Source: Callorhinchus milii
Taxonomy: Eukaryota
Direction of reading: 5' to 3'
DNA: 64,000 nt
Assembly: GCF_018977255.1 (NCBI RefSeq)
Contig: NW_024704798.1
Span: 1 to 64,000, forward strand
Program-made: the position numbers
In this document: positions 24,001 through 31,300 of the stretch, one piece after another
Position numbering within the stretch: the first letter of the stretch is position 1
Layout of the letters: each line of letters starts with the position of its first letter

Positions 24001-25280
24001 TGTTGAAATATCCTGGTGAAGAAAATTGAGATGCCCATTTCTACGATGCTGATTGTTCTACCCTTAACATTAATGATTATAATTATCGTTGCGTTCCATA
24101 TAGTGCCTCATCACTTCCTCGGGACGTCTCCAAGTGCTTTACAGACAATGCTGTCGTGTCAATTAATTTTTCTCTGTGTGAAACGAGGCAGCCAGTGGCG
24201 CCCAGGAGATACACCAACTCATTGACAACCCGTTCCCGACTTACTGCTGGATAAGCAGAGGCAAGTGATGTAACAAAAAGTGCCCAACATCTTGCTCTGT
24301 CTGGGAAACGAACCCACGTCTGTCGCTTGCAAGGCGAGGGCTCTAACCACTGATCTACAGGCCACCGGTGTAAATGTCAAAGGACACTGAGAGGCACGTT
24401 GCTGCCATGTGTACCAGCTGCTGCTGTTCCTCCTACCTGTTGGGGTGGTGATGTTCTTGACAATGATGGTCTGGGTGGGTTCATGGGACACCTGGCAGGT
24501 GTAAACCGCGCCAGTGCTCCACTCTCTGGCGGGGACCGTCAGGCGGCTGCTGCTGCTGAATGTCCCGTTGTCCTCTTTAGCCGAGGGAGAGGTCACAACA
24601 CCAGAGTTGATGGGTTCCCAATCTTTTAGCCATTTAACACTGAGTTTGTCCGGTCGGAAGCTGTTTATTGAGCAGACAGCAGTGGCCTGGTTGTGTATTT
24701 TGATGTCTTCAGGGGAAGGCTGTGTGAGGAACACAACTGGGGGCAATGGTTTCGGTTGTACATTCCCTGAAATACATTGAATAATAAGTTATGTTACGTT
24801 GAAAATATATTGCGTTAGGTGTAATTGGTATTAATATGAAAACAGACATTTATCTCAAACATGATGTGGATACTTCCCACTCAATCACTTATCTCTTTCA
24901 ACCTTCCCAGTTCAAATTTATCTTTAGAAAAATAAACATTGCAATCTACTCAATCGTTTTATCTGATACTTTGCACTGAACTCTAAGCTGAGGTTGGAGT
25001 TGGCAAGTCTTCTATTCCCCTTTCCCTGTTTGTCACAGAGAATCGTTAGGTATTCTCCTTTCGAACTGAACCGCGTGAAATGATTCCTATTCCGTTCATA
25101 TCTGCACTTTATCTCCGAGAAACGTAGCTCTCGGGAAACGAAGGCAACAGTATCAGGCCATTAAGGTACTGTCTGTATGGCTGTTTGTGTGTGTGTGTGT
25201 CTTTGTGTGTGTGTGTTTGTTTGTGTGTGTGTGTGTGTGTATGCATGAAGATCCCATGACGTATTCGAAAACAGATGGCA

Positions 25281-25333
<53 letters not shown>

Positions 25334-28300: not shown

Positions 28301-31300
28301 AAACTAAGTCAGAGCTCAATGTGTCGCTGAATAAAGTCGTGACTGGGGTATGTGGTGTAGCTGAGGAATGAGATTGTGAGCAACACATTAATGCTGATAC
28401 TAAAATAATGACCTTCACTATTATTTCTGTAATATCGGAGTCGATTGCACTGCTGTACCGCCAATCTCATTCCTGTAATATAAACCCACTTTACTCTCAG
28501 AGTCATCCCCTATCGTTCTAAATCGCAAACATTTTCCATATGTACGAAAACGGATTTAACTGCATAAAAAAATAGTAATCCTTGCACTTGATATTGTGCT
28601 TTTCACATCTCCTCGACTTCTCAAAGGGATTCACTGAATAGACTGTAAAGCTAATTGATTATATTTGAGGGTGAACCGCGGCAGCAAATTGCGCACAGCA
28701 GTGTCCCACCAACAGTCGTGATTGAAAATGACTAACTTATTATATTACTGTTTTGGTTTTTGGAGGGATTATTGTCAGGAATTGTAAGGAAACTTTCCCA
28801 AGATTTCGTCCTTCCTTGAATAGAACCCAGGTCTCTCGCTTGGAAGGCGAATACTCTAACCACTGAGCTATAGGACGCCACACAGCTATTCTCAACTGCT
28901 GTTGGAAGCGATCAGATAACATTCCCATCACTCATCCCACCACATTTCAGGCCCTAATTCCCAAAGAATGGGCACAGTTTTAAACACAGTTGCACAATTA
29001 AACACCGAAACCCAGCAGCCGCCAGTCACCGCAATAAGAAAGTCCATCAGATTGACCTCTGCTGGATCTTCACAAACCACCAGAAATATCACCAACAATT
29101 ACCTAAATATTGAGAGAGTAATCCATGATGGGACAGTTGCTGTTGAAAGCAATAACAGATAAAAACTTTCAAGGTGGACTAAAGTGTGAGATAGCCGGCA
29201 ACACGGAGTTCATTACATTTACAAGCTGTTAAAGTGAACAAAACGAATATATAAAGAGACCGTTCACTGAAGTGAATGAGTTAGTGTCTGTTCTTACCGT
29301 CAGTCACCGTCACCGCTGTGCCTTGTCCCCAGTAGTCAGGGCTGCCGCAGGCACTGTGCTACAGTCAGTGGGCTGTTCACTGCAACAACTGCTGTGTGGG
29401 CAGAGCACACAAACACAATATTACTGTAAATGTTGGCTTCTCCAAACCACACACAGATCACGATATGTGTCTGTCATGTTCTGAAAACAATTGCCCGGCG
29501 CTGTGTTTACCTTTTAAATGTTTGTGTCTTTGTCAGTTTGCTGTGTTTCTGCCAAACCACGTTTCTTCTCACCAACAGGTGGAAGATTAAGTCCGATGTT
29601 CTATGTCGTTTAAAATCTCGTGAAATCCTCGGGGTTCAGCAACATGTTAGAAATACCAAATCCCCGCAATTTCAGTGGGTGCCACACAAGCGAGTAGTGA
29701 CAGAGATTAGCTGGTTTGTTGTTGAAGGGTTTTTGTATTGGCAGTTAATGCTGTGGTCCATGTATATACACAGTGATACACAACATGACAAAAACTCCTG
29801 CACAAGACGGACTAACACACATTGACTTGGAATTTGAGATAAGAACTGGATCTCAGTTCATATTCTCTCGTGAGGCCCCGTGTGATGTTTAAGTCAAAAT
29901 AAATTCGTATGTTCATCAGAGAATTTGGATTCTTGTTAAAGCAGCTCAGCAGAACTCATTCTTGTTTAATATCGTCCTGTAATATAAATTAACCTTAATT
30001 AATTTGTTAAACACCAGGTTATTTCCGAGAATGACCCACGTTCAGTAACACTAATATGGGAGCTGTGGATGTTGTAGTGATGACAGGGATTATCATTTTT
30101 TCTCTCTGGGGTTTTTGTATGAGGAGGTAACTGTGTGCAGCATTGTGACCCACTGTATACACAGTGATACAGTCCCATACAAATACTGATCCCTCAATGT
30201 CTGCTCCACACTGACAGCCAAAATTCACTTGAAGGGACTATTCTCCTCTGACATGACACAGAGGATACAGAGTAGTATTTTGATATCCACAGAAACAGAA
30301 AGCAATTATTTCCAACACCTTGTAACAAAATGATGTTTGTGAACCGTAACATAGTCAGTCTCCAATCGCAATCCTTCCCGCCTCAACAGCACAGTGTCAC
30401 TGACCATCTGAAATCACAGAATATTGTAGCACAAATACGTAGTTCGTTCACCCCAATCCAACCACGATTCACTGTGTGGGGTCAGTCTGAGAATAAATCC
30501 ATCTTCAGCTTTTCGTTTAAACTTGGCTACAGATACAGCATTGACCGCATGGATGTCCGTCAGTCAGTTTAGATTGGGAGGGGCTGCTTTCCTCCCCTTG
30601 AGTATTTGTAGGAGTTCAGCCCAGTTCCCTCGCACTGTGAGTCCGCTGCACAGTAGTAGGTCGCGGTGTCCTCCACTCTCGGGCTTTTGATGATCAGATC
30701 GAAGATGCGATTGGAATTCTCTCTGACGACAGTGACGCGGTTTCCAAAACCGGACTCGAAACTGTTGCTGGAGTAGGTGTCAGAAGTGAGGAGCTTTTCC
30801 CGCTGCTTCCCGGGAAGCTGCCGGTACCAGAACATACAGTAGTAATAGGAGCTGTAAAATCCGCTGCTTCTGCAGGTCAGTCTCAGGGACTGGCCGGTTT
30901 TCCCGGTGAGAGTCGGCGGCTGTGTCATCACCACAGCGGCCTGGACACCTGTAAGGAATAAAGGACCGAAGGTGAATGATGGTGAAATCTCCTGTCTCTC
31001 TGACACTGCAGAGAGAATAACACCGACAGAGGAACAGAGACAATATCAGAATAATAGCACTTACAGGAGAAGACCGCCAGCAGCAGACTGAGAGAAATCA
31101 GGGACCTCATGTTTCTCGGAACTTGTCAGAACTGAAACTTGTGCCGAATAACCGAGGGCCAGAGAGCAGCCGGACAGATGGCCTCAGTCCCCAGTGACCA
31201 CTATTTAACACGGGCCACTGGGGCAGGGGTTTGAGAATCGACCAATAGCTCCAGGACTGAGGGGAGTGACGTGTCACATTCCTTCTGACCTGCACAGATC

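What the first reader, a model, noticed from the sequence alone, without database searches (positions are those of the whole stretch)
24767..29297. 4.5-kb J-C intron with no recognisable CH1 exon
Seen: no Ig C1-set ORF in the supplied track or by eye between the J donor and the 24766 acceptor. The first C exon has only the two intradomain Cys and is a near copy of the next exon. Inference: CH1 was deleted or decayed genomically, rather than skipped through a splice-site mutation as in camelids.
Basis: partly seen in the sequence, partly recalled or inferred. Interest (0 to 1): 0.65.

Follow-up and report, generated by a model that had tools for sequence, protein, structure and literature searches.

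The report
Chimaera heavy-chain-only IgM gene cluster
This is an antibody heavy-chain gene of a chimaera (elephant-shark-like fish) that has lost the CH1 exon and carries two copies of the CH2 exon instead, a light-chain-free antibody design already described in ratfish, so the finding is real but not new.

Summary
On the minus strand the window carries one complete IgM-type cluster: leader, V, D1, D2, J, a 4531-nt intron (29297..24767), then four C1-set exons and a TM exon. Three searches of the intron found no CH1: tblastn, a frameshift-tolerant alignment and a CH1 profile. All scores lie within the null distributions. The first C exon is a CH2 paralogue: 77% amino-acid and 85% nucleotide identity to the next exon, with about 128 and 74 nt of flanking intron co-duplicated. 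In a domain tree it sits in the CH2 clade (97/94), outside the CH1 clade (100/100). Its FR2 is polar, unlike the hydrophobic FR2 of conventional chains.

Closest proteins are Callorhinchus milii (CH4 97%). The architecture, CH1 loss with CH2 duplication, is in print for the ratfish Hydrolagus colliei and is interpreted there as a heavy-chain-only antibody (PMC3149040). A 2022 paper on fish heavy-chain-only antibody genes could not be read.

A simulation favours physical deletion or replacement over in-place decay.

Caveat: a single N at 25423 lies in the intron.

Verdict: already known, low interest.

The parts
31065..31110 (-). Leader exon: ATG at 31110, donor gt at 31064-31063, phase 1.
   Evidence: Read from the sequence. 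The 15-residue leader is identical to that of the conventional C. milii chain P0001.
30640..30948 (-). V exon. It has a polar FR2 (W-Y-R-Q-L-P-G-K-Q-R-E-K) and an extra Cys two residues before the FR2 Trp.
   Evidence: Pfam V-set, E 2.5e-15. Sequence. FR2 compared with other chains.
30601..30639 (-). V recombination signal: heptamer, 23-nt spacer, nonamer.
   Evidence: RSS scan: heptamer 7/7, nonamer 7/9.
30110..30187 (-). D1 with its signals. Coding part 30159..30148. 5' signal has a 12-nt spacer, 3' signal a 22-nt spacer.
   Evidence: RSS scan and sequence.
29728..29796 (-). D2 with its signals. Coding part 29768..29756. Both signals have 12-nt spacers.
   Evidence: RSS scan and sequence.
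29298..29390 (-). J with its 23-nt-spacer signal (29390..29352). Coding part 29351..29298 has a W-G-Q-G core and a Cys codon at nt 3-5.
   Evidence: RSS scan and sequence.
24767..29297 (-). J-C intron, 4531 nt, gt...ag, with no CH1. It holds a SINE-like tRNA-derived element (28806-28877), microsatellites (25182-25335 and 25980-26045) and a single N (25423).
24437..24766 (-). C exon A: CH2-type, 330 nt, phase 1, two Cys only.
   Evidence: Pfam C1-set, E 1.1e-21. In the CH2 clade, 97/94. 69-85% identical to C. milii CH2 regions.
24363..24894 (-). Duplicated block A: 128 nt of 5' intron, exon A and 74 nt of 3' intron. It pairs with 23318..23845.
   Evidence: blastn: 77.7% over 539 columns, E 8e-121. 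Flank identities 69.5% and 74.3%.
23318..23845 (-). Duplicated block B: 133 nt of 5' intron, exon B and 74 nt of 3' intron. It pairs with block A at 24363..24894.
   Evidence: blastn: 77.7% over 539 columns, E 8e-121. Flank identities 69.5% and 74.3%.
23392..23712 (-). C exon B: CH2-type, 321 nt.
   Evidence: Pfam C1-set, E 2e-19. CH2 clade. Nearly identical to the C. milii model P0011.
22447..22758 (-). CH3 exon, 312 nt, with one Cys near its N-terminus.
   Evidence: Pfam C1-set, E 4.3e-10. CH3 clade, 100/99.
21798..22189 (-). CH4 exon with the secretory tailpiece and stop codon. An internal donor for the membrane form lies at 21859-21858.
   Evidence: Pfam C1-set, E 1.9e-23. CH4 clade, 99/99. 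97% identical to P0016. Sequence.
19256..19386 (-). TM1 exon, the membrane anchor.
   Evidence: Sequence with ag...gt borders and a hydrophobic stretch. No Pfam family matched. Assignment rests on resemblance to Ig TM segments, which is recalled.

Best explanation
The window holds one complete, apparently functional IgM-type heavy-chain cluster of a holocephalan. The species is Callorhinchus milii or a very close relative. The cluster has no CH1 exon and has two tandem CH2-type exons in its place: L-V-D1-D2-J, a 4.5-kb intron, then CH2a-CH2b-CH3-CH4 and TM.

Shown here:
- the gene structure;
- the absence of any CH1 sequence;
- the CH2 identity of the first C exon;
- the co-duplicated intron flanks;
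- the polar FR2 of the V exon.

Inferred mechanism:
- After V(D)J joining, J splices straight to CH2a.
- Without CH1 the chain offers no site for BiP retention and no Cys for a light chain, so it leaves the ER without a light chain.
- It is displayed or secreted as a heavy-chain-only IgM.
- The polar FR2 keeps the unpaired V domain soluble.

Inferred origin: a tandem duplication of a segment of about 0.5-1 kb holding CH2, together with physical loss or replacement of CH1, not erosion of CH1 in place.
For: Structure.
- Canonical gt/ag at every junction, all phase 1, and open frames in all exons.
- Recombination signals obey the 12/23 rule: V 23, D1 12 and 22, D2 12 and 12, J 23.
- Pfam gives C1-set for all four C exons and V-set for V.

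No CH1.
- tblastn: best intron hit 19-20 bits, E 0.08-0.14.
- Frameshift-tolerant scores of 31-41 against a null mean of about 35. Shuffles reaching the observed score: 134, 68, 83 and 424 of 500. The same queries scored 84-115 against exon A as a control.
- CH1 profile: best E 0.67 among 257 pieces.

CH2 identity of exon A.
- In the tree of 34 domain rows, exons A and B fall in a clade with all 7 CH2 rows (97/94). The 7 CH1 rows form their own clade (100/100).
- A and B are 77% identical in protein.
- dN/dS between A and B is 0.40-0.50, so both copies are under constraint.

Duplication. 24894..24363 matches 23845..23318 at 77.7% over 539 columns.

Deletion favoured over decay. A simulated relic with up to 25% divergence was found in at least 59 of 60 trials. 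The flanks that duplicated with the exon are 26-30% apart across both copies together.

V domain. Among stored chains that show both FR2 and the residues after J:
- 8 of 8 with a G-L-E-W-type FR2 continue into CH1;
- 0 of 5 with a K-Q-(R/Q)-(E/D) FR2 do. These 5 come from 3 loci, and 4 of the 5 are gene models.
- P0015 carries what looks like a rearranged CDR3 and joins J directly to a CH2-like domain.

Literature.
- The ratfish IgM cluster with CH1 loss and CH2 duplication is predicted to be a light-chain-less dimer (PMC3149040, passage).
- 'COS5' is named as a specialised H chain lacking a CH1-type domain, and BiP binds CH1 (PMC2150980, passages).
Against: - No expression or protein data for this cluster were available, so light-chain independence is inferred and not shown. 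PMC3149040 itself says the ratfish protein has not been examined.
- A single N at 25423 lies in the intron. The best CH1-like stretch, which scores at chance level, abuts it at 25516..25424.
- No Ig octamer with up to one mismatch was found within 590 nt upstream of the ATG.
- The preference for deletion over decay assumes that CH1 was lost no earlier than roughly the time of the duplication. At 40% divergence or more a relic would mostly escape the method: 10 of 60 found at 40%, 0 of 60 at 50%.
- The branching order among holocephalan CH2 copies is unresolved, so the age of the duplication relative to the Callorhinchus/Hydrolagus split was not settled.
- Most of the CH1-less comparison chains are automatic gene models, which can skip exons.
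Confidence: 0.85

Rival explanations
1. CH1 was inactivated and then eroded in place beyond recognition, so its remains still lie somewhere in the 4.5-kb intron.
For: - The method loses power at high divergence: 44 of 60 relics detected at 30%, 10 of 60 at 40% and 0 of 60 at 50%.
- The lineage is ancient.
- A weak CH1-like stretch lies on the correct strand at 25516..25403, about 640 nt upstream of exon A.
Against: - That stretch scores within the null: 68 to 134 of 500 shuffled queries do as well. Other 4.5-kb stretches of the window give 30-49.
- The CH1 profile finds nothing.
- Neutral intron flanks of the same locus are still 70-74% alike since the duplication, a level at which a relic would be found.
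Confidence: 0.12
2. A CH1 exon exists but is hidden by the assembly. The single N at 25423 would mark a collapsed gap.
For: The best CH1-like hit, at chance level, ends beside it.
Against: - The other N stretch in the window is a run of 132, so a lone N may be an ambiguous base rather than a gap.
- Independent chains join J directly to CH2-like domains: P0015, P0025 and P0007.
- The V exon has the polar FR2 seen only in CH1-less chains.
- The first C exon is CH2-type with a good acceptor in the right phase.
- The ratfish precedent.
Confidence: 0.03
3. The cluster is a non-functional relic (pseudogene) and makes no antibody.
For: - No expression evidence was available here.
- No octamer was found upstream of the leader.
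- Another C. milii model (P0006) shows a CH2-like fragment with Tyr where the conserved Cys should be.
Against: - All seven coding exons are open with canonical splice sites.
- All six recombination signals are present and obey the 12/23 rule, though two 3' heptamers match only 5-6 of 7 positions.
- dN/dS between A and B is 0.40-0.50.
- The secretory tail, the internal TM donor and the TM exon are all kept.
Confidence: 0.08
4. Exon A is a diverged CH1 that still pairs with light chains.
For: It occupies the CH1 position, and all Ig C domains share the C1-set fold.
Against: - It lies in the CH2 clade at 97/94 and is excluded from the CH1 clade at 100/100.
- It is 23-31% identical to CH1 but 69-85% identical to C. 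milii CH2.
- It lacks the N-terminal Cys seen in all 7 CH1 sequences.
- Intron flanks were co-duplicated with exon B.
Confidence: 0.02

Closest known systems
Spotted ratfish (Hydrolagus colliei) CH1-less IgM cluster ('COS5'; Rast et al. 1998, Immunogenetics 47:234, seen only as a reference entry and through citing passages)
   Same: A holocephalan IgM cluster with CH1 lost and the CH2 exon duplicated, predicted to give a light-chain-free H-chain dimer (PMC3149040; PMC2150980). Its V is called 'single-domain Hydrolagus IgM V' in PMC12227049.
   Different: The species differs: the window is closest to Callorhinchus milii (CH4 97%, against 71% for the ratfish conventional chain). The ratfish COS5 sequence was not on hand, so orthology and shared breakpoints were not tested.
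Fish heavy-chain-only antibody genes (Anumukonda et al. 2022, Eur J Immunol 52:247)
   Same: [quoted passage not shown] PMC12227049 cites it together with the ratfish V regions.
   Different: The paper is not held. I saw only the reference entry and cannot say whether this cluster, its CDR1 Cys or its J Cys are described there.
Conventional C. milii IgM heavy chain (P0001 and P0003, 'secretory form of immunoglobulin heavy chain')
   Same: Identical leader, the same V family (64% identity), and CH2, CH3, CH4 and tailpiece at 69-85% identity.
   Different: It has a CH1 with an N-terminal Cys between J and CH2, one CH2 only, and a hydrophobic FR2 of the G-L-E-W type.
Camelid heavy-chain-only IgG2/IgG3 with VHH
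   Same: No CH1 in the protein, polar substitutions in FR2 at the former VL interface, and extra Cys in the CDRs (PMC3149040). The window's FR2 has Y, Q, R and K where conventional chains have V, G, L and W. The numbering 37/44/45/47 is recalled.
   Different: In camelids the CH1 exon stays in the genome and is skipped through a splice-donor mutation (recalled; not tested here). Camelids use IgG in a translocon locus and have no CH2 duplication.
Elasmobranch IgNAR
   Same: A heavy-chain-only antibody of cartilaginous fish, encoded in a cluster (PMC3149040).
   Different: - Here the V is VH-like (V-set, 64% identical to conventional C. milii VH).
- There are two D segments, not three (the figure of three for IgNAR is recalled).
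- There are four IgM-type C exons with an IgM tailpiece.
- The elephant shark genome paper reports no IgNAR or IgW in C. milii (PMC3964593).

Membership tests
Holocephalan CH1-less IgM (heavy-chain-only type, ratfish COS5-like) | IgM-type cluster organisation: V, D segments, J and C exons in one unit, with recombination signals. | tested here: met
   V 23; D1 12 and 22; D2 12 and 12; J 23. All lie within 12 kb on one strand.
Holocephalan CH1-less IgM (heavy-chain-only type, ratfish COS5-like) | No CH1 exon between J and the first C exon. | tested here: met
   tblastn, frameshift-tolerant alignment with nulls, and a CH1 profile all found nothing above chance. Caveat: one N at 25423.
Holocephalan CH1-less IgM (heavy-chain-only type, ratfish COS5-like) | Two consecutive CH2-type exons. 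| tested here: met
   Both lie in the CH2 clade at 97/94. They are 77% identical in protein, and their intron flanks were co-duplicated.
Holocephalan CH1-less IgM (heavy-chain-only type, ratfish COS5-like) | IgM-type CH3, CH4 with secretory tailpiece, and TM exon. | tested here: met
   CH3 clade 100/99 and CH4 clade 99/99. Tailpiece, internal donor and TM1 seen in the sequence.
Holocephalan CH1-less IgM (heavy-chain-only type, ratfish COS5-like) | V domain adapted to stand alone: polar FR2 at the VL interface. | tested here: met
   FR2 is of the K-Q-R-E-K type, against G-L-E-W in 8 of 8 CH1-bearing chains. That this gives solubility is inferred.
Holocephalan CH1-less IgM (heavy-chain-only type, ratfish COS5-like) | The protein is made and carries no light chain. 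| not testable with these tools
   No transcript or protein data for this cluster. PMC3149040 says the ratfish protein has not been examined.
Camelid-type heavy-chain-only antibody gene (CH1 skipped) | CH1 exon present in the genome with a defective splice donor. | tested here: not met
   No CH1 sequence in the intron or anywhere in the window.
IgNAR | NAR-type V, three D segments and IgW-related C domains (features recalled). | tested here: not met
   VH-like V, 64% identical to C. milii VH. Two D segments. C exons group with IgM CH2, CH3 and CH4.
Conventional IgM heavy-chain cluster | CH1 with a light-chain-binding Cys directly after J. | tested here: not met
   The first C exon is CH2-type with only the two intradomain Cys.

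The most novel reading that the evidence does not exclude
This cluster encodes in the germline both halves of a possible CDR1-CDR3 disulfide. One is an extra Cys two residues before the FR2 Trp in the V exon. The other is a Cys codon at nt 3-5 of the J segment. On top of that, all four classic VHH positions of FR2 carry polar residues.

If the two Cys pair, a holocephalan IgM-derived antibody would have reached the camel-VHH and type II IgNAR solution independently. It would also have hard-wired the CDR3 partner into J instead of D.

The other CH1-less chains seen here (P0007/P0025, P0015, P0041) lack both Cys, so this would be a subtype within the family. I could not check whether the unread 2022 paper already reports it.
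Probability: 0.15. Interest if true: 0.5.

Novelty: already known. Interest (0 to 1): 0.25.

Why it matters
Heavy-chain-only antibodies arose independently in camelids, in elasmobranchs (IgNAR) and, it seems, in holocephalans. This locus shows the holocephalan route at nucleotide level:
- CH1 is physically gone;
- CH2 is duplicated together with its intron flanks;
- FR2 has been made polar.

That is useful as a well-annotated example, and as a possible source of small single-domain binders built on an IgM scaffold. It does not change the current picture, because the architecture has been in print since 1998 and is discussed in reviews. The open questions are biochemical: whether the protein really lacks light chains, whether it polymerises, and whether the CDR1 and J Cys pair.

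Tried and rejected
I replaced it with six-frame pieces and a CH1 profile of my own.
- The best CH1-like stretch, 25516..25403 on the minus strand, looked tempting: right strand and a C-G-Q motif. I rejected it because it is within the shuffled-query null and within the range of other window stretches, and because a stop codon lies two codons upstream of it.
- A score of 65 for the ratfish CH1 against 1223..1032 turned out to be an S/P-rich low-complexity match in a GC-rich, G-skewed stretch, not an Ig domain.
- The PDB sequence search with exon A gave only generic Ig constant-domain hits and does not separate CH1 from CH2.
- The tree could not order the holocephalan CH2 copies: supports of 15-58 on the ultrafast bootstrap. 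The age of the duplication is therefore left open.
- The search with the V exon found no named heavy-chain-only entries.
- Attempts to read Anumukonda et al. 2022 failed. A literature search by author and title phrase returned only the citing paper.
- Not tried: structure prediction, complex prediction, and any search or fold of a joined (spliced or V-D-J-joined) chain. All searches were exon by exon and the joined step was left out.
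Full report
**What is there.** The window holds a single immunoglobulin heavy-chain cluster, all on the minus strand.

| Element | Coordinates |
|---|---|
| Leader exon | 31110..31065 |
| V exon | 30948..30640 |
| D1 coding | 30159..30148 |
| D2 coding | 29768..29756 |
| J coding | 29351..29298 |
| J-C intron | 29297..24767 (4531 nt, gt...ag) |
| C exon A | 24766..24437 |
| C exon B | 23712..23392 |
| CH3 | 22758..22447 |
| CH4 with secretory tailpiece and stop | 22189..21798 |
| TM exon | 19386..19256 |

- All junctions are canonical and phase 1, and all exons are open.
- Pfam calls the four C exons C1-set (E 1.1e-21, 2e-19, 4.3e-10 and 1.9e-23) and the V exon V-set (E 2.5e-15).
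- A scan for recombination signals gives V with a 23-nt spacer, D1 with 12 and 22, D2 with 12 and 12, and J with 23. This obeys the 12/23 rule and makes D2 obligatory.

**Checking the observation.** I looked for CH1 in four ways.

1. tblastn with three C. milii CH1 domains, cut inside a script from the stored chains P0001, P0003 and P0002.
   - Over the whole window it hit only exon A, exon B and CH4 significantly (23-39% identity, E 3e-5 to 2e-11), plus one weak CH3 hit (E 0.15).
   - Against the intron alone the best hit was 19-20 bits, E 0.08-0.14, at 25516..25403 on the minus strand.
2. A frameshift-tolerant protein-to-DNA local alignment that I wrote.
   - The C. milii CH1 queries and a ratfish CH1 scored 38, 41, 40 and 31 on the intron's minus strand, and 33-35 on its plus strand.
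   - The same queries scored 84-115 on exon A as a control.
   - Shuffled queries gave a mean of about 35 (sd about 4). They reached the observed score in 134, 68, 83 and 424 of 500 shuffles.
   - Sixteen other strand-segments of 4.5 kb gave 30-49, with one outlier of 65. The outlier is an S/P-rich low-complexity match at 1223..1032.
3. A profile HMM built from 7 CH1 domains.
   - It found nothing among the 257 six-frame pieces of the intron (best E 0.67).
   - Among 3134 pieces of the whole window it picked out exon B, exon A and CH4 (E 3e-11 to 7e-10).
4. Intron content. The intron holds microsatellites and a tRNA-like element. That element is one copy of a repeat dispersed through the window and so is probably a SINE.

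Exon A has two Cys only.

One caveat remains. A single N lies at 25423, inside the intron and next to the best CH1-like stretch, which is at chance level. I left it untouched.

**What exon A is.** I cut CH1 to CH4 from seven conventional chains and built a tree with the window's four C exons and two CH1-less relatives. The seven chains were two from C. milii, one from Hydrolagus, one from Triakis, two from Ginglymostoma and one unnamed.
- Of the 34 rows, the 7 CH1 rows form a clade at 100/100.
- Exons A and B fall with all 7 CH2 rows in a clade at 97/94.
- CH3 and CH4 group as expected (100/99 and 99/99).
- The order within the holocephalan CH2 group is unresolved.

At DNA level the similarity runs beyond the exons. 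24894..24363 aligns with 23845..23318 at 77.7% over 539 columns. That is 128 nt of upstream intron and 74 nt of downstream intron.
- The exons are 84.9% identical and the flanks 69.5% and 74.3%.
- dN/dS between the copies is 0.40-0.50, so both copies have been kept as coding sequence.
- The alignable block ends where a SINE-like repeat begins.

**Deleted or decayed.** I estimated the power of the alignment method. I mutated exon B at random and queried it with the CH2 of a different cluster.

| Neutral divergence | Relics detected (of 60) |
|---|---|
| up to 20% | 60 |
| 25% | 59 |
| 30% | 44 |
| 35% | 30 |
| 40% | 10 |
| 50% | 0 |

The neutral flanks of A and B are 26-30% apart in total, so roughly half of that per copy. 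A CH1 that began to decay at about the time of the duplication would therefore still be found. Its absence favours physical deletion or replacement. Decay remains possible only if the CH1 loss is much older than the duplication.

**Species and relatives.**
- Exon-by-exon protein searches return almost only Callorhinchus milii.
- CH4 is 97% identical to the model P0016. Exon B, with read-through intron, is nearly identical to P0011.
- The ratfish conventional chain is 71% identical in CH4.
- The window is thus C. milii or a very close relative.
- Conventional C. milii chains (P0001, P0003) have J-CH1-CH2-CH3-CH4.
- Several C. milii gene models (P0007, P0025) and an unnamed chain that looks rearranged (P0015) join J directly to a CH2-like domain.

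**The V domain.** The window's FR2 carries Y, Q, R and K where conventional chains have V, G, L and W. Among stored chains that show both FR2 and the residues after J:
- 8 of 8 with the hydrophobic FR2 continue into CH1;
- 0 of 5 with the polar FR2 do. These 5 represent 3 loci, and 4 of the 5 are gene models.

The V exon also has an extra Cys two residues before the FR2 Trp. The J segment has a germline Cys codon at its 5' end. The other CH1-less chains lack both.

**How it most likely works.**
- Shown here: the gene structure, the missing CH1, the CH2 duplication and the polar FR2.
- From the literature: BiP holds unassembled heavy chains through CH1 until a light chain displaces it, and chains without CH1 travel to the surface and are secreted (PMC2150980, passage). 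A heavy-chain-only antibody needs an absent or modified CH1, a soluble V and, optionally, extra disulfides (PMC3149040, section 4).
- Inferred: this cluster makes an IgM-derived heavy chain that needs no light chain. The second CH2 restores the four-domain length. The Cys at the start of CH3 and the tailpiece Cys serve for inter-chain bonds.

**Comparison with what is known.**
[quoted passage not shown] It adds that the product is likely a light-chain-less dimer and that the protein has not been examined.
- PMC2150980 calls it the specialised H chain COS5.
- PMC12227049 uses a 'single-domain Hydrolagus IgM V'. It cites Rast et al. 1998 and Anumukonda et al. [quoted passage not shown]
- I saw those two papers only as reference entries. 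The 2022 paper is not held.
- The main text of the elephant shark genome paper says C. milii lacks IgW and IgNAR.
- The contrast with camelids (CH1 exon kept but skipped) is recalled knowledge. No CH1 is present here to be skipped.

**Limits.**
- All searches were made exon by exon. I did not build, search or fold a joined chain.
- No eukaryotic genome collection was available, so the dot-plot against a conventional cluster could not be made.
- No expression data were available.

**Verdict.** The feature is a known kind of gene in a lineage where it has been described, so novelty is 'already known' and interest is low (0.25). The one point that may be new is the germline CDR1 Cys together with the J Cys of this particular cluster.

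Noticed in passing
window 30640-30948 (V) and 29298-29351 (J), minus strand: The V exon has an extra Cys two residues before the FR2 Trp. The J segment has a germline Cys codon at nt 3-5. Together they could form a CDR1-CDR3 disulfide. The other CH1-less chains seen here lack both.
   Followed up: partly
window 28806-28877 (minus); also 7127-7212, 12375-12473, 24310-24361, 33088-33182, 44913-44994, 62652-62744: ARAGORN and Rfam call a tRNA-Gly(TCC) in the intron (42.7 bits). It is 72-85% identical to six other stretches of the window, so it is most likely the head of a tRNA-derived SINE and not a working tRNA gene. One copy sits in the intron between exons A and B, where the duplicated block ends.
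   Followed up: partly
window 20317-21490 and 15990-17200: Two CA-rich, G-skewed blocks are 68.9% identical over 1258 columns. One lies just downstream of CH4 and the other downstream of the TM exon, so they bracket the TM region. Their meaning is unknown.
   Followed up: no
window 57958-58893, minus strand: An intronless 312-codon open frame matches the rhodopsin-family 7TM receptor model (7tm_1, E 8.7e-15). It is an unrelated neighbour of the Ig cluster.
   Followed up: partly
window 1-2000: A GC-rich stretch (56% GC) with very strong G over C skew (0.53). Its translation is S/P-rich and gave a spurious match to the ratfish CH1.
   Followed up: partly
window 53495-53626 and 25423: A run of 132 N and a single N. 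Both were left as they are.
   Followed up: no
window 31111-31700, minus strand: No Ig octamer with up to one mismatch, in either orientation, lies within 590 nt upstream of the leader ATG. A simple pattern scan also found no TATA-like match.
   Followed up: partly
stored proteins P0041, P0042 and P0006 (C. milii gene models): P0041 and P0042 join a polar-FR2 V and J directly to a CH4-like domain. P0006 shows the end of a CH2-like domain with Tyr in place of the conserved Cys, followed by a second CH2. These may be further variant or decayed clusters of this family, or gene-model artefacts.
   Followed up: no
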